This document shows positions 2,847-61,765 of a stretch of DNA of 64,000 nt, piece after piece. Location of the stretch: positions 49,290,001 to 49,354,000 of the forward strand of contig OX597833.1 in assembly GCA_951406725.2 (NCBI GenBank). Reading direction: 5' to 3'. Numbering within the stretch: the stretch's first letter is position 1; each line of letters opens with the position of its first letter. Position numbers and translations under genes: made by a program. The notes under the pieces are model-generated. The model ran no database searches. It was not told the origin of the DNA and saw only the letters and a list, made by a program, of their open reading frames with translations. This DNA is from Octopus vulgaris (lineage: Eukaryota).

Positions 2847-3625
2847 GGAAGCACTCCGTCGGTTGATCCGAATCAACGGAACAGCCTGCTCGTGAAATTA
2901 ACGTGTAAGTGGCTGAGCACTCCACAGACACGTGCACCCTTAACGTAGTTCTCGGGGATATTCAGCGAGTGACACAGAGAGTGACAAGGCTGGCTCCCTT
3001 TGAAATACAGGTACAACAGAAACACGAAGTAAGAGTGAGAGAAAGTTGTGGTGAAAGGGTACAGCAGGGATCACCACCATCCCCTGCCGGAGCCTCGTGG
3101 AGCTTTAGGTGTTTTCGCTCAATAAACACTCACAACGCCCGGTCTGGGAATCGAAACCGCGATCCTACGACCGCTTGTCCGCTGCCCTAACCACTGGGCC
3201 ATTGCGCCTCCACTGGTAAGGAGTATGGTACAAATCATTGGAAGCACTCCGTCGGTTACGACGACGAGGGTTCCGGTTGATCCGAATCAACGGAACAGCC
3301 TGCTCGTGAAATTAACGTGTAAGTGGCTGAGCACTCCACAGACACGTGCACCCTTAACGTAGTTCTCGGGGATATTCAGCGAGTGACACAGAGAGTGACA
3401 AGGCTGGCCCCATGAAATACAGGTACAACAGAAACGGGAAGTAAGAGTGAGAGAAAGTTGTGGTGAAAGAGTACAGCAGGGATCACCACCATCCCCTGCC
3501 GGAGCCTCGTGGAGCTTTAGGTGTTTTCGCTCAATAAACACTCACAACGCCCGGTCTGGGAATCGAAACCGCGATCCTATGACCACGAGTCCGCTGCCCT
3601 AACCACTGGGCCATTGCGCCTCCAC
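2847..3625 (-). mobile_element. two tandem copies of tRNA-derived SINE family C
   Basis: Minus-strand head gtggaggcgcaatggcccagtggttagggcagcgg with B box ggtttcgattccc; flanked by repeats of ctggtaaggagt(atggtacaaatcatt). Other copies 8636-9005(-), 29454-29835(+), 35869-36250(+). Confidence 0.9.
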
Positions 3626-3991
3626 TGGTAAGGAGTATGGTACAAATCATTACATATTGTAAATATAACATGCTTTTTCGCTGATTATAAGAGTATCATA
3701 TCATGTCCATTGCTGATAAATCTAAAGAAACTAGGTGATGCTAGATGAGCGTATTTATTTCTTTATTGCACACAAGGGGCTAAACATAGAGGGGACAAAC
3801 AAGGACATACAAAGGGATTAAGTCGATTACATCGACCCCAGTACGTAACTGGTACTTATTTAATCGACTCCGAAAGGATGAAAGGCAAAGTCGACCTCGG
3901 CAGAATTTGAACTCATAACGTAGCGGCAGACGAAATACCTATTTCTTTAAATGGTGCTCCACCATGGCCGCAAGCAAATGAAGAATAAATG

Positions 3992-15911: not shown

Positions 15912-16591
15912 GGTTGAGAAACACTGTGTTAGAAGATTCGTGTTTAAATCCATCTGACCATGTGAGGATAATCAATCATTTGGAAGGATAAACTCAGGAA
16001 TCCGAATTAATTGATGATGATCTTCGGCGGCAACAATTATTTGTCAATAAGAGGATTTGTAGAAAGGTTCGATAAGTTCATATCAATTGAAAGCTTTTAA
16101 TATGGATCACTATCGGTAATTGGCGACCATCCATGAAGTTAATCGATACGTTTGACTTCTATGTATGGGTTTGTAGCGTAGCTGATATCCTCACTGATTG
16201 AGAGATATATTAGAAATGATCTCGTGTTAGATAACAACCATCTTCGGCTATTTGAACCCTGTTGTGTCCACTGCTCTGATTGGTTGGCATTGGCGCAGTT
16301 TGTCTCTTGACATATTTCGCGCCAGTGTGTAAGCCAACCAATCACGGCCTTCAGATATGGTCCCGTGACACTGTTTTTCTTAGTCCTTGTCTGAGCCTAC
16401 CCCAGGATTTATAAGGCGCCAGCATTCACTACTCCAGGTTTTTGGTTCTAGTCCTTTTCAGGACTAACCTCTGACCACAGAGCTACTCAACCAGTTCCAG
16501 TTCTGGCGACAGACGACCAGTCCAGCCAACGACGACGCTAGCATACACCAGCAACGCAGGACGTCTCCATCACCGTCGCCATCATCTCAAC

Positions 16592-17178
16592 CTATTTCTT
16601 TATTACCCACAGGGGGCTAAACACAGAGGGGACAAACAAGGATAGACATAGGTATTAAGTCGATTACATCGACCCCAGTGCGTAACTGGTACTTAATTTA
16701 TCGACCCCGAAAGGATGAAAGGCAAAGTCTACCACGGCGGAATTTGAACTCAGAACGTAGCGGCAGACGAAATACCTATTTCTTTACTACCCACGAGGGG
16801 CTAAACACAGAGAGGACAAACAAGGACAGACATAGGTAATAAGTCGATTACATCGACCCCAGTGCGTAACTGGTACTTAATTTATCGACACCGAAAGGAT
16901 GAAAGGCAAAGTCGACCTCGGCGGAATTTGAACTCAGAACGTAGCGGCAGACGATATACTATTTCTTTACTACCCACAAGGGCTAAACACAGAGAGGACA
17001 AACAAGGAAGACATAGGTAATAAGTCGATCACATCGAAGTGCGTAACTGGTACTTAATTTATCGACACCGAAAGGATGAAAGGCAAAGTCGACCTCGGCG
17101 GAATTTGAACTCACAACGTAACGGCAGACGAAATATCGCTAAGCATTTCGCCCGGCGTGCTAAAGTTTCTGCCAGTTC
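16592..17178 (-). mobile_element. SINE family B head-to-tail trimer within one TSD
   Basis: Three ~180-bp units; gtcgccatcatctcaacc duplicated on both sides. Confidence 0.9.
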
Positions 17179-20100
17179 GTCGCCATCATCTCAACCGTCG
17201 CCATCACCACCGTCGACTTCACCAATACGTATACAGCACTCGCTCAGGTTTATAATTCTGAAGCGCAGTAGCTGCATGGTGTCATGATGTGCAACTAGCT
17301 GTGTACACCAGTTTTCTACTATTATTTCATTTTGCTACGTTTAGCAATCTACACACTGAGCGTGTAAGTGTAGAAGTAACGGCAGAAGTTGAAACTGTAA
17401 GAAGCATTCGCCATAGAGCTGCAGTAGAGCATTCTCTCTTTACTTGTTTCAGTCATTTGACTGCGGCCATGCTGGAGCACCGCCTTTAATCGAGCAAATC
17501 GATCCCGGGACTTATTCTTTGTAAGCCCAGTACTTATTCTATCAGCTTCTTTTGCCGAACCGCTAAGTTACGGGGACGTAAACACACCAGCATCGGTTGT
17601 CAAGCAATGCTAGGGGGACAAACACAGACAAACACACATATATATATATATACATATATACGACAGGCTTCTTTCAGTTTCCGTCTACCAAATCCACTCA
17701 CAAGGCATTGGTCGGCCCGAGGCTATAGCAGAAGACACTTGCCCAAGGTGCAACGCAGTGGGACTGAACCCGGAACCATGTGGTTGGTTAGCAAGCTACT
17801 TACCACACAGCCACTCCTGCGCCTATAGCATTGTGGTGCATCTTTATGCAGGTAATATCACGGTCAGCGACATTGAATATCGAAACAGTGCACTTTTAAA
17901 GATAACGATGAGTTAATGACAGGACCAACTCGAATTACAGTGCGGGTCACTTTAATCACAAAGTTTTTTGAGAGTCGCTTGTATACTGACAGAATTGAAA
18001 GCATTTTGCTTACTCATGCTATTATTACAACAATAAATAAATGACCTTAATAGTTATCGCCAGGCAGTCCAGGAAAATAGGACGAATGCTGTTGGTTAGC
18101 TCCAAGAGGCCATCGCCTCTAGCTAGCTATGTGACACACAAACCTCAACATTAAATATTTTCGTTGCAAAAACAGTATCTTTTTTTTATATACTTTTTAT
18201 TACAACCTTTAATTTTTGACAATTGCAGCGTGGAAGGTGTTTATAAGCTTAAACAATCCTTATTCAGGGACCTTTTGAAGGGGATGGGCTACTCGACCAT
18301 ATTAAAAGCTTTCATGGGTGGTTTATAAACTGTAAAAAGCATTCTCCATAGAGCTGCAGTAGAGCATTCTCTCTTTACTTGTTTCAGTCATTTGACTGCG
18401 GCCATGCTGGAGCACCGCCTTTAGTCGAGCAAATCGATCCCGGGACTTATTCTTTGTAAGCCCAGTACTTATTCTATCGGTCTCTTTTGTAAACACACCA
18501 GCATCGGTTGTCAAGCAATGCTAGGGGGACAAACACAGACAAACACACAAAAGCCGTTCGATTCATTTCAATATTTAAATTTAATTTGTGAAAATATTTT
18601 CGTCGCTTTGAGACCGCGACCTGTTCACTGACAAAGCTTCGTGCTGCATTTAATTTTTGATAAAATTTTTAAAACGTTTGTTTAGATAAATCCATTTCAA
18701 GAAAGTATCAAGCGGGCCGAAAGACAAAAGTCTGCAAGCCTCAGGTTGCCTAGCTCTGATCTAGACCAAATAACAAACTTTTGAATGTAGCTCGGTCCGG
18801 ATTTTTAAGTAGAAAATTAACATTAAAGGTTATTAGAGTTTCAAAGAAGGCGGCGAACTGCTAGAATCGTTCGTACGACGGACAAATGCTTTGAGGTATT
18901 TTTTTTTAAACAGCCCATTCACTGTTCGCTTCCTGTGCATTATTCTATGTACTGTTCATGCACTTTTGGCTGCTTTTTTTCTGATGAGCTGTAGTGCACC
19001 TGAGCACTATATACAATAAATTCATAATCATAATCATCATTATGAAGGCTTAGTGGTTAGGATGTTACACTGATGATTGCTAGATCGTGATTTCAATTCC
19101 TAGACCAGGCGGTGCATTATGTTCTTGAGCAAAACATCTCATCTCACATTGCTCTGCGAACGCTTCGACACCCGACGCGTGGTACACGGTGCACCTGTTC
19201 AAACATGGAAATGAGAACATCTAAGGTTTGAATACCAAGAGTTCCACCCGGAGTAAACTCTATGTGCTTGATGGCGGCAGTCCTGTCAAAAAGCGAGGAT
19301 AATATAAACCCCCTGCAGGCTACCGTCACAGAGAATACATATTGGAATGGACGAACGCCCAACCTGCTACTGCAGGCAGAGCAGAGGATTTTAGAGCAGC
19401 TCCCAGAAATAGTAGAAGTAGGGGAGGAAGTCGAGAGAGATTGAACTAATGTGCAGCACGAACATTTGATCATTAGAAACAAATCGTTTGTGTAGGTCGT
19501 TCGGCAAAAGCCGAACGCTCATATGGTATCTTCGACGGGAGAATCCATCATAAGGTGGCGAGCTGGCAGAAACGCTAGCAAGCCGGGCAAAATGCTTAGC
19601 GGTATTTCGTCTGAGTTCAAATTCCGCCGAGGCCGACTTTGCTTTTTATCCTTTCAGGGTCAATTAAATTATGTACCAGTTGCGTACTGGGGTCGATCTA
19701 ATCGACTGGCTCCCTCCCCCAAAATTTCTGGCCTTGTGCCTAGAGAAGAAAAGAATCAGTAGCACGCCGGGAGAAATGCTTAGCGGTATTTCGTCTGCCG
19801 ATACGTTCTGAGTTTAAATTCCACCGAGGTCGACTTTGCCTTTCATCCTTTCGGGGTCGATAAATTAAGTACCAACAAGGGGCTACACACAGAGAGGACA
19901 AACAAGGACAGGCAAACGGATTTTTGGGTGTCTGGTTTGGACCAGGCCTCAAGATAGAAAAGAATGCAGGGAATTCACTTTCCGAAACATCAGAAATGTT
20001 ATCAAAAATTAAACTTTCAATCTTCCTCGCTTCCTGAAGACACTTCTTTCTTCATTTTGAATCGTCTTTGCTTCTGTATTTCTTTCGGTACCCGTAACTC

Positions 20101-22431: not shown

Positions 22432-22590
22432 GTATGTTTGAACCATTTTTTTACATGTTACACTAGCTACCTTCATTCATCATCATCATTAAAGCACACA
22501 AAACCATCATGCTGCAGCTAGGACTGGACCTTTGTGGTGTTAGGCTAATTTTGACGAAATCAAATCCTGAACCTGTTATTGATGGGGTTT

Positions 22591-23290
22591 GGCACATAAA
22601 AAGCACCATCCAATCGTAGCTGTTGCCAGCCTCGCCTGGCCTCCGTCCCGGTGGCACGTAAAAAGCACCATCCGATCGTAGCTGTTGCCAGCCTCGCCTG
22701 GCCTCCGTCCCGGTGGCACGTAAAAAGCACCATCCGATCGTAGCTGTTGCCAGCCTCGCCTGGCCTCCGTCCCGGTGGCACGTAAAAAGCACCATCCGAT
22801 CGTAGCTGTTGCCAGCCTCGCCTGGCCTCCGTCCCGGTGGCACGTAAAAAGCACCATCCGATCGTAGCTGTTGCCAGCCTCGCCTGGCCTCCGTCCCGGT
22901 GGCACGCAAAAAGCACCATCCGATCGTAGCTGTTGCCAGCCTCGCCTGGCCTCCGTCCCGGTGGCACGTAAAAAGCACCATCCGATCGTAGCTGTTGCTA
23001 GCCTCGCCTGGCCTCCGTCCCGGTGGCACGCAAAAAGCACCATCCGATCGTAGCTGTTGCCAGCCTCGCCTGGCCTCCGTCCCGGTGGCACGTAAAAAGC
23101 ATCATCCGATCGTAGCTGTTGCCAGCCTCGCCTGGCCTCCGTCCCGGTGGCACGTAAAAAGCACCATCCGATCGTAGCTGTTTCCAGCCTCGCCTGGCCT
23201 CCGTCCCGGTGGCACGTAAAAAGCACCATCCGATCGTGGCCATTTGCCAGCCTCGTCTGGCACCTGTGCCGGTGGCAGGTAAAAAGCACC
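22591..23290 (+). repeat. 62-bp tandem array (~11 near-identical units) in the FANCL intron
   Basis: Unit ggcacgtaaaaagcaccatccgatcgtagctgttgccagcctcgcctggcctccgtcccggt recurs every 62 nt from 22591 to 23211. Confidence 0.95.
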
Positions 23291-31019: not shown

Positions 31020-31810
31020 ACGCTGACAGAATCGTACCTTGCCGGAAAAATTGCTTAGCGGCATTTCTTTCGGAGCTTTTATATTCTGAGTTCGAGGCTT
31101 TACATTCTGAGTTCAAATTCCGCCGAGGTCGACTTTGCCTTTTATCCTTTCGGGGTCGATTAAAGAAGTACCAGTTACGCACTGGGATCGATATAATCGA
31201 CTTAATCCGTTTGTCTGTCCTTGTTTGTCCCCTCTGTGTTTAGCCCCTTGTGGGTAGTAAAGAAATAGGTATTTTGTCTGCCGTTACGTACTGAGTTCAA
31301 ATTCCGCCGAGGTCGACTTTGCCTTTCATCCTTTCCGAGTCGATAAATTAAGTACCAGTTATGCACTGGGGTCGATGTAATCGACTTAATCCATTTGTCT
31401 GTTCTTGTTTGTCCCCTCTGTGTTTAGCCCCTTGTGGGTAGTAAAGAAATAGGTATTTCTTTCGGGGCTGCCGTTATGTACTGAGTTCAAATCTGAGTTC
31501 GACTTTGCCTTTCATCCTTTCCGAGTCGATAAATTAAGTACCAGTTATGCACTGGGGTCGATGTAATCGACTTAATCCATTTGTCTGTTCTTGTTTGTCC
31601 CCTCTGTGTTTAGCCCCTTGTGGGTAGTAAAGAAATAGGTATTTCTTTCGATATTCTGAGTTTGAGGCTTTACATTCTGAGTTCAAGTGTTGCCGTGGTC
31701 GAATTTGCCTTTCATCGTTTCAAGGTGGATAAAATGTGCACCATTTGAGTATTGGGGTCGATGTAATGGACTATAAAACTCTCGCTGGCCTTGTGCCAAA
31801 ATTAGAAAGC
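31020..31810 (+). mobile_element. SINE family B multimer nested in an older copy
   Basis: Units joined at aaagaaatag|gtattt; the homologous array at 37435-38045 has one unit fewer. Confidence 0.85.
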
Positions 31811-33461: not shown

Positions 33462-33561
33462 NNNNNNNNNNNNNNNNNNNNNNNNNNNNNNNNNNNNNNN
33501 NNNNNNNNNNNNNNNNNNNNNNNNNNNNNNNNNNNNNNNNNNNNNNNNNNNNNNNNNNNNN
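33462..33561. other. assembly gap (100 N)
   Basis: Run of n. Confidence 1.
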
Positions 33562-37400: not shown

Positions 37401-39696
37401 TTTTTAATCTTCATTATTATTATTATTAATGCATACGCTGACAGAATCGTACCTTGCCGGAAAAATTGCTTAGCGGCATTTCTTTCGGAGCTTTTATATT
37501 CTGAGTTCGAGGCTTTACATTCTGAGTTCAAATTCCGCCGAGGTCGACTTTGCCTTTTATCCTTTCGGGGTCGATTAAAGAAGTACCAGTTACGCACTGG
37601 GATCGATATAATCGACTTAATCCGTTTGTCTGTCCTTGTTTGTCCCCTCTGTGTTTAGCCCCTTGTGCGTAGTAAAGAAATAGGTATTTTGTCTGCCGTT
37701 ACGTACTGAGTTCAAATTCCGCCGAGGTCGACTTTGCCTTTCATCCTTTCCGAGTCGATAAATTAAGTACCAGTTATGCACTGGGGTCGATGTAATCGAC
37801 TTAATCCATTTGTCTGTTCTTGTTTGTCCCCTCTGTGTTTAGCCCCTTGTGGGTAGTAAAGAAATAGGTATTTCTTTCGGGGCTTTTATATTCTGAGTTT
37901 GAGGCTTTACATTCTGAGTTCAAGTGTTGCCGTGGTCGAATTTGCCTTTCATCGTTTCAAGGTGGATAAAATGTGCACCATTTGAGTATTGGGGTCGATG
38001 TAATGGACTATAAAACTCTCGCTGGCCTTGTGCCAAAATTAGAAAGCGTTATCACTTATTTGTAAAGAATAATGAACAGGTACAATACATTTAGATGTAT
38101 TCATACGTATGGAATTAGTCTGTCTGTCTGTCTCTCTCATAAACTTTTATCATCAGCAGTTTTATGAAGGAAAAGTGAGAGCAGACGACAATGAATTAAT
38201 GAATAACAATGACATTGGTCGTTTCCATGCTCGTTTCAAGTTACTGTTAAGTCACTCTTAAGCAGAACAAAATACGTTTTTAATAAATACTAGCAGTATT
38301 GCCCGGCGTTGCTCGGGTTTGTTTTCTTTTTAACCCTTTAGAATTGGAATTTTTGAAAAGTAAAAATTTTGCATTATGTAGCTTGTTATTCTCTTTAAGT
38401 GAACATTTTTTTAGTTAAAACACACCGAAAAATAGCGATACAGCAGTCAAAAATTCGTAAAAAATGGGATTTTCATAGAAAAAAGCACCTTTTTTATGTA
38501 AATAGTTTTTGGTGTTAACATGGTCCGATTTGAATTTTTCTTCTACGGAAGGAAGAGCAAGCCTTCTTCTATCATACTCTCAATTTTGGTCAAGTTGCGC
38601 CGCAGGGTCTCGGAGGAGATAGTGTTAGTTGAAGGCTACTAAACCTGCCATACACAGACAACTGCAGCTATATATATAGAGAGATTTTAGTGAAGAGGAA
38701 ACGTAGTTTTCACAACTCTTCACAAGACCTCCGACACTGGTAGGGAGTATGGAAAGGACGTATCTTCGAGCTGGAGACATGGGCCGTATGCTTGCGACAG
38801 AGTGGACTCTGCTAATAACACCTAAGTATAGTGTTGAGGTGGGCAGTAGATTACGAGACCAAATGTCCAGGAAAACTGACAAAAAGGGTCTTGTTTCATC
38901 CGGACAATGTTCCAGCACACAAGTCCTTGGTTTCAATGGCTGCTATGTGTGACTATGGTTTTGAACTGGTTGATCAGTATCCCTTTTTCTCCTGATTTGG
39001 CCTCCTCTGATTATCATATGTTCCCCAACATGTAAATACACTTGGCTGGGAACCAGTATCGCAGTGATGGTGACGTCATATCTGTTGTTGATGAGATTTT
39101 TGACCAACAGGATGAAGGCTTTTTCACTAATGGGATCCAAGCACTCTTAACATCGATGGAAGAAGTGAGTGAATCGCAAAGGAGACTATGCTGAAAAAAC
39201 CCCCTCATTTGGCCAGATTTCATGAGACTATCTTTGGCAGCTGTGAACTTTTCAGCCGACTCTCGTAAGTCTCCATTTTAGGTCACAGTGGGGTCAGAAA
39301 TTAGGGTAACGTAAAGGGCCTGAACAAATATTTAAAGGCATTTTTTAAAACCAATCTCTAAAGAATGAGCAGCAAGGTTGAGCGACGCCTGATTTGAGCT
39401 GTGAGTTCCATGCACCTAGTGTCTTATACATTCGTACTTTCTTTATATTATTATAACCCACGTTGTATTACTGGTTTCTTACATACGTTCAGTGGTTAGA
39501 GCGTCGGGCTCACGATCATGAGGTATTGAGTTCGATTCCCTGACCGGGTTGTGTGTTGTGTTCTTGAGCAAGACACTTTATTTCACATTGCTCCAGTTCA
39601 CTCTACTGTAGAAATGAGTTGTGACGTTACTGGTGCCAAGCTGTATCGGCCTTTGCCTTTCCCTTGGATAACAACGGTGGCGTGGAGAGAGGAGGC
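33562..39696 (+). repeat. copy 2 of the ~6.2-kb direct duplication
   Basis: Begins right after the gap with the same aaaaaagtaaatagcttctcag sequence as 27171. Confidence 0.95.
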
Positions 39697-45270: not shown

Positions 45271-45279
45271 TAATAATAA

Positions 45280-45462
45280 TCTGTTCTACAATGGGCACAA
45301 GGCCTGAAATTTTTGGGACACACTGTTCAAAATAATCTTATCTACAATAGGCACAAGGCCTGAAATTTTGGGGTCACAATGTTCAAAATAATTTTTTTCT
45401 ACAATAGGCACAAGGCCTGAAATTTTTGGGGCACAATGTTCAAAATAATCTTTTCTACAATA
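45280..45462. repeat. three tandem ~57-bp units built from a SINE tail
   Basis: ctacaataggcacaaggcctgaaatttt...gttcaaaataat repeated. Confidence 0.8.
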
Positions 45463-46179: not shown

Positions 46180-46785
46180 AATCCTTTCTCCTGAAGGCAC
46201 AATGCCTGAAATTTGGGGTAGGGGGCAAGTCGATTACATAGACTCCAGTGTGTAACTGGTACTTGTTTCATCGGCCCCGAAAGGCTGAATTTGACCTCAG
46301 AACGTGAAGACGGACGAAAGGCTGCTAAGCATTTCACCCGGCGCACTAACGGTTCTGCCGGCTCGCAGCCTTAATAATCATAATAATAATCCTTTCTAAT
46401 GTAGGCACAAGGTCTGAAATTTGGAGGAGTGGACTAGTCGATTAGACCGACCCCCAGTGTTTCACTGGTACTTAATTTATCGGCCCTGAAAGGATGAAAG
46501 GCAAAGTCGACTTCGGAGGTATTTGAACTCGGGACGTAGCGACAGACGAAATGCCTATTTCTTTACTACCCACAAGGGTCTAAACACAGAGAGGACAAAC
46601 AAGGACAGACAAACGGATTATGTCGATTACATCGGCCCCAGTGCGTAACTGGTACTTAATTTATCGACCCCGAAAGTATGAAAGGCAAAGTCTACCTCGG
46701 CGGAATTTGAACTCAGAACGTAACGGCAGACGAAATACGGCTAAACATTTCACCCGGCGTGCTAACGATCTGCCAGCTCGCCGCC
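46180..46785 (-). mobile_element. cluster of family B SINE units (young unit fused to older ones)
   Basis: Junction gacgaaatgcctatttcttt at ~46546-46565. Confidence 0.85.
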
Positions 46786-46796
46786 TTTTTTTTTTT

Positions 46797-46842
46797 AGAT
46801 GGAACGCTTCACGAATTTGCGTGTCATCCTTGCGCAGGAGCC

Positions 46843-46875
<33 letters not shown>

Positions 46876-46889
46876 AATATGTACCGCCG
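46797..46889 (-). pseudogene. U6: U6 snRNA retrocopy lacking the first ~10 nt
   Basis: Minus strand cggcggtacatattctaaaattggaacgatacagagaagattagcatggctcctgcgcaaggatgacacgcaaattcgtgaagcgttccatct plus A11; contains the ACAGAGA box and AGC triad. Confidence 0.93.
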
Positions 46890-47049
46890 TTAATCATTTC
46901 GCCCGGCGTTCTAACGAGTCTGCCAGCTCACCGCCTTTACAATCATAATAATGATAAGTAACTCGAAAATTCTAACAAAATTAAAAAAAACAAAACATTC
47001 CCAATAGGACGAATAAACGCCACCCAGGGTAAACCAAGGAACTGTACTG

Positions 47050-48330
47050 TTCCTAAGCCATCCTACTCAGCAGGAGTATCATGGTAAGTGCTACTCTCTT
47101 CCCTATGTGCTTCAACCTAGAACCGCTATCTTGGAGTACGCACGATCACTCGGGTCTTACTTGTCGCATTCACCCACCTTTTAACAAATTTGTCGGAGGG
47201 CAGCACTTCCGTCTCAACAATCACTTTCCTTTTCAAATGGAATTTAAAAAAAAGTCGATAAGGGCTTAGCCGAAGATGAAAATGCTTTCATTCCTTTCAA
47301 TTACGTTCTTCACACAATCTCTTTCGCCATAGTCACTAGACACAGAAAACTGCTTGCGGTTCCCGGTCAAAGGAAAGTGACGGGGTGATCTTAACGATAG
47401 AGTCAACGCCCAGAGTTTCTGAGGACGCCGTCGACCTTACCCACCCCATTCCTCTATAGAACGTCATGATGGAACATTTACGGACCGTATTGCACGGCTG
47501 GTAGAGGACTATGAGCAACCGACGGCACTCTAGATACTATGCACACGAGCTCCGTCTACGCTTGATCTAGGACTGCAGCTCTGCCAAAGAAAGGAGCTGC
47601 GGAAAAGCTCGTCTGGTAAACGGCGACCACAAATTCTCATTGTCAAGAAATTGCTGGAGATATTGTAACCTCGTTGCATGTCTGCGCGTCGTTTGCTACG
47701 GCCTGCCTTGTCCTCCATGCAGTGGATGTTCACAGTAAATGGACCATCTGACCAATGGAACGCGTCCGCTCAACAGAAAATAGAAGAGCAAGTGCCTCAT
47801 TCTGGTCAGCTCTGAAGCGAGGCAAATCAGGACAGTCAGATGGTATTAGATAACGGATACGATGTAGACATTCACCATCTCCTCTTGGCCCTACACGGAG
47901 AGTTTCGTGTGGCCCATTTCTGGGTGAGACTAGCCATCTTCCTCCTCACCTTATTACAGTTCTTGTCAATCTGGAAATCTGGATCAAAGCAAACAGTCCG
48001 CCCGTCTAGCGCTCCACGACGATGTTGGACGACATGGATCTCTCCATATGCTGAATTGCAGGCTCAACAACTTCTGGTTAATTTTTACCCCTATCATTGC
48101 CTCGTATTCTCTTAGAGCAGTGTCAACCATCTCGATGTATTTGGAGTCCGACACTATTACGATGACGTTACCCGCATACGTAAACACGGGTCTTCTGCAT
48201 CCTTGTTCTTGTGAAATATCTCTCGAAACCTCCAATTTCTGCTACGGTGGCTGTAAAAGTCAGTACGTACAAAAAGGAAGAGATGTGGCACTCTTGACAA
48301 CCGAACGCATGACAACAAACGGTTCCGACA
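47050..48330 (-). mobile_element. degenerate L1/Tx1-like LINE ORF2 remnant
   Basis: Minus strand FTYAGNVIVIVSD...ALREYEAMIGVKINQK (decayed YADD and following K-I-N motif); C-terminal ...FFKFHLKRKV...FVKRWV; many stops and frameshifts. Confidence 0.6.
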
Positions 48331-48402
48331 CGTAACCATTAACTCTGACCACCGAACAAATATCGCTGTGCATTGCAGTAGTACATGGTCATCGGGTACT
48401 AC

Positions 48403-49002
48403 GAGCTGGCAGAAATGTTAGCACGCCGGACGAAATGCTTAGCGGTATTTCGTCGGCCGTTACGTCCTGAGTTCAAATTCCGCCGAGGTCGACTTTGCCT
48501 TTCATCCTTTCGGGGTCGATTAAATAAGTACCAGTTACGCACTGGGGTCGATGTAATCGAATTATTCCGTTTGTCTGTCCTTGTTTGTCTCCTCTGTGTT
48601 TATCCCTTTGCGGGTAGTAAAGAAATAGGTGTTTCGTCTGCCGTTACGTTCTGAGTTCAAATTCCTCCGAGGTCGACTTTGCCTTTCATCCTTTCAGGGT
48701 CGATTAAATAAGTACCAGTTACGCACTGGGGTCGATGTAATCGAGTTATTCCGTTTGTCTGTCCTTGTTTGTCTCCTCTGTGTTTAGCTCCTTGTGGGTA
48801 GTAAAGAAATAGAAATAGGTATTTCGTCTGCCGTTATGCTTTGAGTTCAAATTCCGCCGAGGTCGACTTTGCCTTTTATCCTTTCAGGGTCGATTAAATA
48901 AGTATCAGTTACGCACTGAAGTCGATATAATCGACTTAATCCATTTGTCTGTCCTTGTTTGTCCCCTCTATGTTTAGCCCCTTGTGGGCAATGAAGAAAT
49001 AA
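48403..49002 (+). mobile_element. SINE family B head-to-tail trimer with TSD
   Basis: Three units joined at aaagaaatagg|t(a/g)tttcgtc; agtacatggtcatc present before (48380) and after (49002). Confidence 0.9.
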
Positions 49003-49447
49003 GTACATGGTCATCACAATTCTTAGCATATCACAATCATATCGCTATCGTGTGCAAACACAACACTTTTGCTCTGTGCATATCCTAAATCTTATATTCA
49101 GCCTTCTGAACTGGACACTATAAAAACTTGGAAAAATGGATTCATAGCCTCGGAAAGTGTTATATATCAGTGTTAATGGAAATGTTAACATCAATGTAGT
49201 CAGATTATACTTCCCTCGCAAGGAAGGTTGCCGGGGATTTAAATCTGTTGTAATATCATATGAAACCCAACATGTAACACAGAAGTGACATCTCCAGTAG
49301 AGAAAGTGCTTAACACTATTTTGAAGAAGTTTACGATCATGGAAGTGATAAAATTATTAGGATAGCTAATAAATTTCAGGAGAGACATGAAATAAAATCT
49401 GACACCAACCTCTCCAAGGAACATTAGCGGATTTCCCCCTCACCACG

Positions 49448-53312: not shown

Positions 53313-55307
53313 ATGTGTGTGCGTGTGTGTGTTGTGTGTGTGTGTGTATGTTTATGTGTTTGTGTTTGTCCCCCCCGGCATCGCTTGACAACCGATGCTG
53401 GTGTGTTTGCGTCCCCGTAACTTAGCGGTTCGGCAAAAGAGACCGATAGAATAAGTACTAGGCTTACAAAGAATAAGTCCCGGGGTCGATTTGCTCGACT
53501 AAAGGCGGTGCTCCTGCATGGCCACAGTGAAATGACTGAAACAAGTAAAAGAGTAAAAGAGAGAGTATCTTGCAGCTAGCTCCTGCCTCATATTCAGGAT
53601 GTTACACTCTGACATATTGACAAAGACCCTTTTGGGGGAAAGTTCACGTCTCATTTTCCCTTACATTGTAAGGAGGTGCACTGCTCATTATTGACCACTT
53701 AATATTATACTTTGTTTTGTTATCCTTAAGTTCCCATATAAGTTTGTTTAATGAGATCGATCTTTCCTTATCCCTGTGTTTAAATGATGAGACGTGATTA
53801 TAATATCGAGGCTTGAAGGTTGTTGCGAAACAGCCTAAATAATGGTAAACTGTTTTGTCCGTAACAACTGAGCAGCTATTCGATGATTGGTTCCTTAGCG
53901 CCTAGTATAATGTCAATTCCATTTTTAGTCAAGAGTTTTCCCTTAGAAAAATGAGTGCCTTATATAGCATACATACATACATACATTCATACATACATAC
54001 ATACATACATACATACATACATACATACATACATACATGCATACATACATACATACATACATACATACATACACACACATACATTTATATACATATGTAT
54101 GTATATGTATGTATGTTTTAATGCATCTATGTACATCTGTGTACATTTGCGCATGCATATGTCTTTATTCGTTTATTCATTAACATATTGCAGTTATTGG
54201 ACTGCGGCCATTCTGGGGCACTACCTTGAAGGATTCTTTGAGTCGATCACATTGACCTCCACTCCACTCCACTCCACTTCACTCCAAGCACTGACACTTA
54301 TGTATACCATGGGCTTCCCTATACCTTCTTATTTCTTTATTGCCCACAAGGAGCTAAACATAGAGGGGACAAACAAGGACAGATAAACGGATTAAGTCGA
54401 TTATATCGACCCCAGTGCATAACTGGTACTTAATTTATCGACCCCGAAAGGATGAAAAGCAAAGTCGACCTCGGCGGAATTTGAACTCAGGACGTAACGG
54501 CAGACGAAATACGGCTACGCATTTCACCCGGCGTGCTAACCTTTCTGTCAGCTCGCTTCCCTCTACTTTCTGTCTATCGAATTCTCTCAGAAGTCATTTA
54601 GTAATCTCGAGGCTGGAGTGGAAAACATTTGTCGAAGCTACGTAATGTGTTGTTATACTTTCAGTGTTTGTGTGTTCCATCTATATAGTATAACCGAATA
54701 TAAGCGAGTATTTATGACAACTGTATGCACGTATTTCTTTTATGTGCATATTTTATGTGTTTCTCCTTCATACCTTTCATTTACAGTAAATTCAAAAATT
54801 CGCCATCTTGAATCAGAAGTTGAAACTCTCTAAAAGCAAACGCAGCAAGCTCATAAGCGAAGCAGACTATAAAAAGCGAAGAAAACTAAACCAAAGAAAA
54901 TTTATATGATTTATAGGTCGTACAACGTTTTTTGTTTTTGCCTCCGTTGATTATTTATTGAATACAAATTCACATTAGTTTAAAGCAGACGACAGACATT
55001 TTTCACCTGTGTTGGTTAAATTTATATCCATCAACAGCAAAATAAATGTCAAGTTCCTTCTCAGTTTTGCTACTTTTGCTCTGAAGATGAAAACAATTAT
55101 TGTTGCCTATAAATAAACGTGAAGCATATTTTAAATATTTTCTTTTGTTTTTAGTTCGGAAAATTGAAATTTCTTGTGTAAGTATTCTTATCGGCCATAA
55201 CGTCTGTTATTTAATACTTTCAGACTATCATTGCAATGGTTCACAACTTATTTGCTGTAGAAAATGTTTGACATAATTTTTAAATATTCAACATGAAGTC
55301 TTCTTAA

Positions 55308-55692
55308 GGCGGCGAGCTGGCAGAAACGTTAGAACGCCGGGCGAAATGCGTAGCCGTATTTCGTCTGCCGCTACGTTCTGAGTTCAAATTCCGCCGAGGT
55401 CGACATTACCTTTCATCTTTTCGGGGTCGATTAAATAAGTACAGTTACGCACTGGGGTCGATGTAATCGACTTAATCCGTTTGTCTGTCCTTGTTTGTCC
55501 TCTCTGTGTTTAGCCCCTTGTGGGTAGTAAAGAAATAGCTATTTCGTCTGTCTTTACGTTCTGAGTTCAAATTCCGCCGAGGTCGACTTCGCCTTTCATT
55601 CTTTCGGGGTCGATAGATTAAGTACCAGTTGCGTGATGAGGTCGATCTAATCGACTGGCTCCCTCCCCCAAAATTTCGGGTCTTGTGCCTAG
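55308..55692 (+). mobile_element. SINE family B dimer (young unit plus older-tail unit)
   Basis: Junction aagaaatagc|tatttcgtc; second unit ends in the alternative ...cccccaaaatttcgggtcttgtgcctag tail. Confidence 0.85.
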
Positions 55693-57924
55693 AGTTATTT
55701 GACTTTGTTTGTTCCTTCTCAAGCCATGCCTGGCTCCTATATATCAAAAGGATATGTTATAATATTCTTCCACATATACAAAAACAGCCATACCAACAAT
55801 CCAACATGCCTCCATCATCAGCTGCCCCACGAATATCATTATAGTTTCGACACCTGGGCAGTACGATTCTATCCAGCGGTGTCAATAGCACTAAAATAAG
55901 AATTGTTTGGGAACAAATATACGAAAGAAACCACAGCTTTGAAACACGTTTACCCTATGTACAAGAGTATCAGTAAATAAATTCAATAAGTAAATCTATA
56001 AACTAACTCCTAAATATGTAACTAAACAGCTTTAAGTCATGCAAAAATATTCCTTACAGTCCTCCATAGTATAATATAAACGTAAAGCTTAATAACCACA
56101 TTGATTCAATCTAAATATGGGCAGGATTAGACACTAATTTTAAAATTAAACTGCAGCAAAGAAACACATTAATCTAAGTAGCTTGCTAACCAACCACATG
56201 GTTCCGGGTTCAGTCCCACTGCGTGGCATCTTGGGCAAGTGTCTTCTGCTATAGCCCCGGGCCAATCAATGCCTTGTGAGTGGATTTGGTAGACGGAAAC
56301 TGAAAGAAGCCTGTCGTATATATGTATATATATATATGTATGTGTGTGTGTTTGTGTGTCTGTATTTGTTCCCCTAGCATTGCTTGACAACTGATGCTGG
56401 TGTGTTTATGTCCCCGTCACTTAGCGGTTCGGCAAAAAGAGACCGATAGAATAAGTACTGGGCTTACAAAAAGAATAAGTCCCGGGGTCGAGTTGCTCGA
56501 CTAAAGGCGGTGCTCCAGCATGGCCGCAGTCAAATGACTGAAACAAGTAAAAGAGTAAAGAGTATGTACATCTGTATCGGTATTAATAGTAAACCTACAA
56601 TAACTAAATTATATTCTGAATAGCGACCAATCTTTCAGTCCATGCAAATGATAATCCCATCAGTCTTCCATAGTTAATACTATAATAAAAAAAGTGAAAG
56701 CTTTATATTCAATTCTCTCCAAAGCGAAACACGAATGAATTTAATTTAACGAATAATATAGTAATTACGAGTGATAAACATTATTTCATAATTCGAAAGT
56801 TAATAATACAAACACTACATTCTCATTAATATTACCCTTACAAGATTTAATGTAAAATTACCAGTAACTAATAGAAACATTAAATTTTATTACACATACA
56901 CACAGACACAGACACAGACACACACAAACATATTTTTTAAATTTTATTTGTTTCGGTCAGTTGACTGTGGCCATACAGGAGCACCGCCTTTTTTAGTCGA
57001 GCAAATCGATCCCAGGACTTATTCTTTGTAAGTCCAGTACTTGTTCTATCGGTTTCTTTTTGCCGAACCGCTAAGTTACACGAACGTAACCATACCAGTA
57101 TCGGATATCAAGCGATGTTGGGGGACAAACACACACACACAAACACACACACATACACACACATATACGACGGGCTTCTTTCAGTTTCCGTCTACCATAT
57201 CCACTCACAAGCCTTTGGTCGCCCCGAGGCTACAGTAGAAGACATTTGCCCAAGGTCCCAAGCAGTAGGACTGAATGCGGAACCATGTGGTTGGTAAGCA
57301 AGCTACTTACCACACAGCCACTCCTGCGCCTATATATGTGATTTAATTTCAAGCAAGTAAAATCTGTTGCTCAGGAGAAAGGAATATAGTTTTTACTTTT
57401 ATTCTACTTCACTAAGATATATATCAAACTAGGTATCTTAAGGTATTACTAAGCCGGCGTCAGCCTTGGAGTAATTTACGGCCAAGATTTCCCATAAATG
57501 TATTATAATCTAAGATATTTTCATATTTTTTGTAAACTCGAACAAGAAATACCGCCACACCACATCTAGGTGTTTATATATTAGCAGTCCGTCGGTTACG
57601 ACGACGAGGGTTCCAGTTAGTCTGATCGACGGAATAGCCTGCTCGTGAAATTAACGTGCAAGTGGTTGAGCACTCCACAGACATGTGTACCCTTAATGTA
57701 GTTCTCAGGGAGATTCAGCATGACACAGAATGTGACGCGGTCGGACATTTGAAATACAGGTACTACTCATTTTTGCCAGCTGAGTGGACTGGAGCAACGT
57801 GAAATAAAGTGTCTTGTTCAAGGACATAACCTGCTGCCATCAATCGAACTCACGACCTTTCGATCGTGAGCCGGATACTCTAACCACTAAACCACATATA
57901 TAAACACACACACAAACGTATATG

Positions 57925-61414: not shown

Positions 61415-61765
61415 GTTAGATCGACCTTAGTACGCAAATGGTACTTAATTTATCGACCCCGAAAGGATGAAAGGTAAAGTCGACCTCGGCGGAATTTGAA
61501 CTCAGAACATAGACAGACGAAATACCTATTTCTATTTCTTTACTACCCACAAGGGGCTAAACACAGAGAGGACAAACAAGGACAGACAAACGGATTAAGG
61601 CGATTACATCGATCCCAGTGCATAGTTGGTACTTAATTTATCGACCCCGAAAGGATGAAAGGCAAAGTCGACCTCGGCGGAATTTGAACTCAGAACGTAA
61701 CGGCACACGAAATACGGCTACGCATTTCGCCCGGTGTACTAACGTTTCTGCCAGATCGCCGCCTT
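61415..61765 (-). mobile_element. SINE family B dimer
   Basis: Junction gacgaaatacctatttc at ~61516-61532; aagctgaga(g/t)aaat on both flanks. Confidence 0.85.

What the first reader, a model, noticed from the sequence alone, without database searches (positions are those of the whole stretch)
16574..17196. SINE that multimerises at one fixed, self-complementary junction (self-targeting or rolling-circle)
Seen: family B occurs as monomers, dimers and trimers. Independent loci share the junction ...AAAGAAATA-GG-TATTTCGTC (about 3935, 16775, 16958, 31268, 46555, 48628, 48818, 55538, 61525). Each added unit lacks the first ~50 nt, and the 3' tail GAAATA is complementary to the TATTTC restart point. 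Trimers at 16592-17178 and 48403-49002 each lie within one TSD. Several arrays end in an older-subfamily unit with a different tail (31650-31810, 46390-46550, 55540-55692). Inferred: either new copies home to a specific site in existing copies, or a circularised ~180-nt RNA is reverse transcribed repeatedly. The mixed-age arrays favour self-targeting.
Basis: partly seen in the sequence, partly recalled or inferred. Interest (0 to 1): 0.7.

Follow-up and report, generated by a model that had tools for sequence, protein, structure and literature searches.

The report
SINE chains seeded by self-insertion
A very common short jumping element in this likely octopus genome lands on the letters GGTA, which also sit at base 50 of its own front end, so some copies land inside their relatives; the resulting one-headed chains were then likely copied around the genome as whole units and lengthened by duplication, and no evidence of a circular RNA was found.

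Summary
The locus is one tRNA-type SINE head plus three 184-bp bodies inside one target-site duplication (TSD). The exact tail-to-base-50 junction occurs 39,269 times.

Rolling circle is not supported: units differ, last units often belong to another family, and no ribozyme was found.

Self-insertion is real: double-headed insertions with a TSD starting at base 50 exist. But the young subfamily prefers ^GGTA in ordinary DNA too, and base 50 is hit only about 1.5 times more per target than an antisense GGTA site. Such events explain roughly 1-7% of junctions.

One-headed chains carry the upstream unit's head type, young outer TSDs and little age gap between units, so most were likely inserted whole. 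Read-through RNA is my pick; template jumping is the main rival. Trimers and longer chains show in-register duplication. A single master is not supported.

This scan noted the same family before on other DNA of this genome. Verdict: a new variant of SINE self-insertion and tandem arrays; no description found in the 10 paper searches run.

The parts
16581..16592 (.). TSD copy at the element's 3' side; reads GGTTGAG... on the element's strand, i.e. a ^GGT landing site
16593..16776 (-). unit 3 (last), consensus 50-233, TAA-type tail, 95.1% to the family consensus
16777..16959 (-). unit 2, consensus 51-233, TAG-type tail; exact junction to unit 3 at 16776/16777
16960..17184 (-). head (A-box-like about 17167-17175) plus unit 1 (B-box-like about 17103-17112), TAG-type tail
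   Evidence: box names from recalled Pol III consensus; ARAGORN finds no tRNA
17185..17196 (.). TSD copy at the element's 5' side (19 bp if the overlap with the head is counted)
48380..49015 (+). second trimer (TAG, TAG, CAA tails) within a 14-bp TSD; doubled GAAATA at the second junction
46390..46937 (-). double-headed nest: old family-A head, U6 copy with A-run (46793-46897), full young SINE, then the rest of the old copy from base 50
31022..31810 (+). array inside an old copy whose peculiar 50-60 nt from base 50 stand on both sides: a seamless, homology-joined insertion with a long duplication (second copy at about 37437-38080 is a segmental duplicate)
55306..55695 (+). one-headed young+old heterodimer with a young-type head
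61416..61765 (-). one-headed dimer with doubled GAAATA at the junction
3756..3950 (-). headless unit preceded by only about 11 nt of tail (5'-truncated dimer)

Best explanation
The young subfamily of this SINE inserts at GGTA-type sites, its own head carries GGTAT at base 50, and some copies sit inside older copies at that base with a target-site duplication; such nests likely seed chains that are then likely transcribed through and re-inserted whole, and the longer chains likely grow by in-register duplication. Step 1 (shown): landing motif, and nested insertion at base 50. Step 2 (inferred): Pol III starts at the inner head, meets no T4 terminator in either consensus, and reads through the rest of the target. 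Priming at the last tail then pastes a one-headed dimer with a fresh TSD. Step 3 (pattern shown, mechanism inferred): a 184-bp stretch spanning a junction is duplicated by unequal exchange or slippage, giving chimeric middle units. The enzyme is inferred to come from an APE-RT LINE of Tx1 type with a related 3' end. A minority of chains are seamless insertions into resident copies.
For: Motif: in the upstream TSD copy, base 1 is G in 29 of 40 TAG/TAA-type insertions with a TSD, base 3 is T in 34 of 40 and base 4 is A in 29 of 40 (a TSD was found for 40 of 77 chains). Tail+GGTA[ACG] occurs 8,239 times against 437 in the control. Nests: 136 exact double heads. Of 30 fetched, 25 continue into a body at base 50 and about 16 (read by eye) repeat the target's own variants on both sides. 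Antisense GGTAC nests: 388 and 932; 7 of 10 fetched show the TSD. Per available target, sense/antisense = 1.5 (95% range 0.8-3.2). One-headed B+A chains have upstream-type heads: G45 11/42 vs 20/71 in B monomers and 3/87 in A monomers; A38 3/42 vs 53/89. Their outer TSDs are young: 5/195 mismatches vs 13/450 in B monomers and 21/303 in A monomers, p=0.04. CpG decay last vs first unit: 0.288 vs 0.104 in 15 nested dimers, 0.201 vs 0.143 in 63 one-headed dimers. No T4 run in either consensus. Inner neighbours are close in the tail (distance 0.039, n=41, control 0.081), dimer units are not (0.107 vs 0.108). Middle units share 5' alleles with the downstream unit and 3' alleles with the upstream unit (medians 113.5 vs 145.5, p=1.6e-4, 41 overlapping triples). 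LINE: 1149-aa APE-RT-zf-RVT frame; related tail seen in 23 of 25 loci, nearly all followed by TATC repeats.
Against: No RNA spanning a junction was seen. Read-through from founder nests predicts dimer lineages, and none was detected: no linkage between first and last units (r=-0.02, p=0.70, n=32; r=0.12, p=0.07, n=26), and 0 of 820 pairs of last units share 2 or more rare variants. Hundreds of founders would be needed. It also predicts last units as old as nested targets, yet they are younger, and B-B dimers are symmetric. Headless multimers are rarer than headless monomers (13 of 145 vs 20 of 96), and only 1 of 13 has a TSD. T21 is somewhat enriched in B+A heads (16/41 vs 13/70), a hint of target-derived head parts. 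The LINE found lands in (TATC)n and was never joined to base 50 (0 matches), so the true partner is not identified. 100 of the 180 ten-kb stretches were chosen for a junction or nest; target supply rests on small counts (10 and 44).
Confidence: 0.5

Rival explanations
1. Chains form in transit. While one SINE RNA is being copied, the new DNA strand ends or is nicked at base 50, where it looks like the usual GGTA primer, and reverse transcription restarts on the tail of a second RNA. Each dimer is then a new combination inserted in one event.
For: Fits upstream-type heads, young TSDs, unlinked and diverse units, symmetric B-B dimers and last units skewed to young family A (24 of 40 vs 30 of 106 monomers). 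Doubled GAAATA at junctions looks like a priming stutter. A U6-SINE chimera lies in the window. The tail could pair with the head's TATTTC.
Against: No pile-up of monomers starting at base 50. B+A dimers would need tails of two kinds handled in one event. Last units are slightly older overall (p=0.045), clearly so for old-type A (p=0.01, n=12). DNA-level nests already produce the same junction without this step.
Confidence: 0.25
2. Sequential self-homing is the main route. RNA that runs on past the tail pairs with base 50 onward of a resident copy, and the 5' end joins by homology, leaving one head.
For: Clear seamless cases with long duplications at window 31.0-31.8k and L003. Landing-site base 1 differs by subfamily (G 29/40 vs 1/11, p=2e-4) and resembles each subfamily's own junction (base 50 vs base 17). 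Deficit of headless multimers. Old-type A as last units.
Against: Heads and bases 63/65 of first units are B-type, not target-type. Dimer units are no closer at 50-100 than controls. Outer TSDs are young, and last units are less decayed than free monomers of their class. Classical nests show only about 1.5-fold preference.
Confidence: 0.15
3. One or a few dimeric masters plus unequal crossing-over make all arrays.
For: Longer arrays show duplication. First units of dimers are enriched for some alleles (127T/130A 16/24 vs about 10/49).
Against: Last units come from several families and share no rare variants. No first-last linkage. Independent nests exist.
Confidence: 0.05
4. A circular RNA of about 184 nt is reverse transcribed repeatedly.
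For: Inner units of long arrays are alike, identical over a region in about a fifth to a quarter of pairs.
Against: Arrays start with a head and end at a normal tail. Last units are often of another family or subfamily. Similarity is staircase-like. The focal units are 90-94% identical. No Rfam match and no hammerhead core.
Confidence: 0.02

Closest known systems
Alu self-insertion hotspot at Alu position 133 (Levy, Schwartz, Ast; PMC2836564; abstract, section 13 and passages read)
   Same: A SINE inserts into its own family at one base, in sense orientation, because that base offers a nick-and-prime site.
   Different: There the site is the A-rich linker and the counted cases are nests with both target parts flanking. 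Here the site lies in the tRNA-type head, most products have one head, and about half of the young tails are in such junctions.
TSD1-(SINE)n-TSD1 arrays of Scapharca broughtonii (PMC11481361; section 15 and passages read)
   Same: One head, head-truncated repeats at a fixed position, one outer TSD, mollusc tRNA-SINE.
   Different: There the first and inner units also lack the 3' tail and about 3% of copies are in arrays. Here every unit keeps a complete tail, the join is the landing motif, and arrays mix families.
SINEU / Tx1-Mar of crocodilians (PMC4494074; passages read)
   Same: A SINE that likely takes its target preference from a Tx1-type LINE and piles up in tandem. The paper notes that co-transcribed target sequence can strengthen targeting.
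   Different: The target there is a Mariner element and tandem copies sandwich a TSD. Here the target is the SINE's own head and the preference is a loose 4-5 base motif.
SINE-derived satellites of squamates; jerboa Dip multimers; dimeric SINEs such as Alu (PMC10702118; passages read)
   Same: SINE pieces grow into tandem arrays by duplication. Some SINEs amplify as dimers, and multimers can reach half of a family.
   Different: Those multimers are full-length copies or internal portions. No landing-motif-defined junction appears in the passages read.
Octopus OR1/OR2 CORE-SINEs (named in PMC4824008, PMC4758252, PMC5804259; passages only)
   Same: tRNA-derived octopus SINEs; plausibly the same families as A and B here.
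   Different: Identity could not be tested: no reference sequence was available.

Membership tests
tRNA-derived SINE | short, dispersed, high copy, with TSDs | tested here: met
   233-nt consensus from 125 copies; TSD in 32 of 73 monomers, mean 14.6 bp; tens of thousands of copies
tRNA-derived SINE | tRNA-related head with A and B boxes | tested here: inconclusive
   Box-like motifs by eye against a recalled consensus; ARAGORN and Rfam give no tRNA hit
tRNA-derived SINE | 3' end shared with a LINE | tested here: met
   Last about 42-45 nt align to the 3' end of an RT-coding element
tRNA-derived SINE | Pol III transcription | not testable with these tools
   No raw-read RNA run was offered
Octopus OR1/OR2 CORE-SINE | sequence identity with the published consensus or CORE domain | not tested
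   No reference sequence at hand; motif search of 2 of 3 supplementary files of PMC4824008 was blank
Tx1-clade LINE (candidate partner) | APE endonuclease + RT + C-terminal zinc motif in one frame | tested here: met
   PF03372, PF00078, PF13966; shared by the wider L1 group, so not diagnostic alone
Tx1-clade LINE (candidate partner) | target-sequence preference | tested here: met
   (TATC)n after the tail in nearly all of 23 loci
Tx1-clade LINE (candidate partner) | RT phylogeny with named Tx1 elements | not tested
   The 11 homologues carried no names; 'Tx1' is my recalled reading
Retrozyme or rolling-circle multimer | self-cleaving ribozyme in the unit | tested here: not met
   Rfam 0 hits; recalled hammerhead core absent on both strands of the doubled unit
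Retrozyme or rolling-circle multimer | all units copied from one template | tested here: not met
   Last units of other families, staircase chimeras
Alu-type self-insertion hotspot | one preferred base, sense orientation, target parts on both sides | tested here: met
   Double-headed nests at base 50; a minority of junctions
Scapharca-type TSD1-(SINE)n-TSD1 array | first and inner units truncated in the 3' tail | tested here: not met
   Inner tails are complete at 134 of 152 junctions that restart exactly at base 50

The most novel reading that the evidence does not exclude
The SINE writes its own targeting. RNA from chains carries the tail followed by the base-50 sequence, and that run-on pairs with GGTA-ended primers, in the genome or on a sister cDNA still being made. 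Each subfamily thus joins its own family at its own base (50, 17, about 22) and builds concatemers in a feed-forward loop. Tens of thousands of junctions would record RNA-guided priming or fixed-point template jumping by a non-LTR reverse transcriptase.
Probability: 0.3. Interest if true: 0.68.

Novelty: new variant of a known kind. Interest (0 to 1): 0.42.

Why it matters
It shows how a dispersed SINE can turn a large share of its young copies into tandem chains simply because its landing motif lies in its own head, which links retrotransposition to the birth of tandem repeats. With tens of thousands of junctions, it is a large natural test set for how non-LTR reverse transcriptases choose primers (enzyme cut site or RNA pairing) and whether they jump templates at a fixed point. 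Practically, such mosaic chains will split one family into many in automatic repeat libraries.

Tried and rejected
Polymorphism test. Reads and contigs from 8 runs were laid on the two trimers. No piece spanned an array, and depth was swamped by other copies, so unit number could not be read. Contigs of two other organism labels cross one flank each of the focal element, which only suggests that the insertion predates those lineages. The two raw-read runs had next to no depth on the unique flanks.

RNA evidence. No raw-read RNA run was offered.

Folding. One monomer folds no better than shuffles (z=-0.29).

Self-complementary junction as the cause. Rejected as unnecessary, because the same motif is used in ordinary DNA and on the antisense strand.

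GAT(A/G)T site at consensus base about 157 as a second hotspot. Only 20 matches.

A LINE that lands on base 50 (lead from earlier notes). The (TATC)n family never does. In 1.95 Mb, 424 body starts were preceded by a head (233), a SINE tail (181) or something else (10), none clearly a LINE end. A family of about 1,000 copies could be missed in this sample.

Partial last units and double-head single bodies as proof of read-through RNA. Ambiguous, not used.

Naming the central domain. Not achieved.

Literature. Ten searches found no description of this junction. PMC13282606 (part 1 of 3 and passages) and PMC8967140 (passages) have no occurrence of 'nested' and no SINE tandem or dimer passage. PMC5786205 (passages) was not informative. 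Ohshima and Okada 1994 and Albertin 2015 with its supplements were not seen and may bear on the family name.

Full report
What is there. The finding covers a minus-strand element at 16593-17184 made of one head and three bodies between two 12-bp TSD copies. A consensus of 125 full copies is 233 nt (family B). An older family A shares bases 1-168 and has another tail. Added units start at consensus G50. The genome (2.8 Gb, 227 contigs) is likely an octopus, inferred from its size, its repeat make-up and the literature on octopus SINEs; this was not tested. I worked on the window, 180 fetched 10-kb stretches and LINE loci, 1.95 Mb in the last parse. Of the 180, 60 were centred on exact junctions, 30 on nests, 10 on antisense hits and 5 on LINEs. 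The other 75 (750 kb) were placed without regard to content and serve as the unbiased set. Earlier statistics used 121 sequences. Two segmental duplicates in the window were dropped from then on.

The junction. The exact 20-mer occurs 39,269 times, control 0. In the 121-sequence set 134 of 152 junctions with a complete B tail restart exactly at base 50 and 8 restart at base 17; 0 of 34 junctions after an A unit restart at 50 (half of those loci were chosen for the junction). In the unbiased set 13 of 26 TAG-type, 2 of 9 TAA-type and 1 of 8 CAA-type tails run into base 50. Genome-wide the young tail is followed by the junction 31,937 times and by a non-G base 20,501 times. A second junction at base 17 has 3,665 exact copies.

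Why base 50. Young copies in ordinary DNA are followed by GGTA-, GATA- or TATA-like sequence, and these bases stand in both TSD copies, so they belong to the target. Base 1 is G for TAG/TAA types (29 of 40) and mostly A for the CAA type (G in 1 of 11). The head carries GGTAT at 50-54. Double-headed nests (old head, short duplication, full new copy, rest of the old copy) match a strict pattern 136 times. Of 30 fetched, 25 continue at base 50 and about 16 repeat the target's own variants on both sides. This shows DNA-level self-insertion. The antisense strand has a GGTAC site that is also used: 932 3' and 388 5' matches, TSD seen in 7 of 10 fetched. With 10 and 44 available targets per 750 kb the sense site is preferred only 1.5-fold (0.8-3.2). 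The antisense site is itself used roughly 5 times more per site than average GGTA[ACG] DNA (my estimate). Scaling these rates gives a few hundred expected classical junctions against 39,269 seen, and in the unbiased set 1 of 15 headed multimers is nested. So about 93-99% of junctions are in one-headed chains. Caveat: nests with duplications over 20 nt or with homology-joined 5' ends escape the strict count.

How one-headed chains arose. In B+A chains the head is B-type at 38 and 45, and first units lack A alleles at 63/65. Outer TSDs are as young as those of B monomers (5/195 vs 13/450 mismatches; A monomers 21/303). The last unit is far older than the first in 15 nested dimers (CpG decay 0.288 vs 0.104, p=0.003). 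It is only slightly older in 63 one-headed dimers (0.201 vs 0.143, p=0.045), with no gap for B-B or young-A dimers and a gap for 12 old-type A. Last units are less decayed than free monomers of their class. Most chains therefore look inserted whole. Neither consensus has a T4 terminator, so read-through from a nest's inner head is the simplest source. Against it, no dimer lineages were found and headless multimers with TSDs are scarce. Template jumping at base 50 fits the lack of lineages better, but no monomers pile up at base 50 and it needs two tail types in one event. Seamless homing occurs (window 31.0-31.8k, L003) but looks like a minority route.

How chains grow. The two units of a dimer are unrelated beyond family, whereas inner neighbours in longer arrays share rare variants (0.46 vs 0.016 per pair in the tail). 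Middle units take 5' alleles from the downstream unit and 3' alleles from the upstream unit; 11 of 14 informative triples go this way and 2 the other way (triples overlap). This is the signature of in-register duplication. DNA exchange and RT slippage on a tandem RNA cannot be told apart here. The focal units are 93.4, 94.0 and 90.2% identical to each other and 85-91% to the other trimer, which fits this and not a single circular template.

The enzyme. A long element shares the last about 42-45 nt with family B. It has intact 1149-aa frames with endonuclease, RT and zinc domains and lands in (TATC)n. I read it as Tx1-type from recall; no tree was made. It was never found at base 50, so a sister family may be the real partner. 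Whether the GGTA preference comes from the enzyme or from RNA run-on pairing is open: the subfamily-specific first base allows either.

Relation to what is known. Single-base self-insertion is known for Alu (PMC2836564). One-head arrays are known in a clam (PMC11481361), Tx1-steered SINEs in crocodilians (PMC4494074), and SINE multimers and satellites in rodents and reptiles (PMC10702118). I saw passages or single sections of these, as listed under Closest known systems. The combination here, a landing motif inside the head with complete-tailed, mixed-family chains involving about half of the young tails, was not found in ten searches of the held library. Other notes of this scan describe the same family in this genome with differing mechanisms; they are not independent support. 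My tests favour the reading 'inserted whole, then duplicated' over 'seamless homing as the main route'.

Noticed in passing
window 46793-46897 (-): U6 snRNA copy (Rfam RF00026, 88.9 bits) with an A-run, wedged between an old SINE head and a young full SINE; a possible U6-SINE template-switch chimera.
   Followed up: partly
window about 27.5-31.9k and 33.9-38.1k, N gap 33462-33561: Near-identical blocks about 6.4 kb apart on either side of an assembly gap; a segmental duplication or an assembly artefact.
   Followed up: no
genome-wide; L002, L026, L063: Second fixed junction, tail to head base 17 (3,665 exact), used mostly by the CAA/CAG types; a third, family-A tail to base about 22, in 3 cases including window 19752.
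   Followed up: partly
L186:4208-7657; L161-L185: Young, abundant APE-RT LINE with many intact frames that inserts into (TATC)n and stacks in tandem.
   Followed up: partly
L158:3700-4970: A second, diverged LINE of the same kind whose 3' end resembles more of the SINE-B tail and ends in (ATT)n, directly before a SINE head.
   Followed up: no
window about 47147-47714 (-): Decayed LINE fragment about 210 nt upstream of the old SINE head at 46937.
   Followed up: no
window 45275-45462: 56-bp tandem (3.3 copies) made of the family-A tail: a SINE-derived minisatellite.
   Followed up: no
G000:C11:89645235-89645382; G000:C2:47097791-47098044: Short tandem arrays of SINE head pieces (57-bp period) and tail pieces (78-bp period) seen in match lists.
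   Followed up: no
window 22590-23290 and 2860-3651: 62-bp tandem (11 copies, 96% matches) and a 412-bp near-duplicate, not compared with this SINE.
   Followed up: no
L146, L148, L149: Insertions at the antisense GGTAC site whose neighbours start at consensus base 124-125, giving small inverted arrangements.
   Followed up: no
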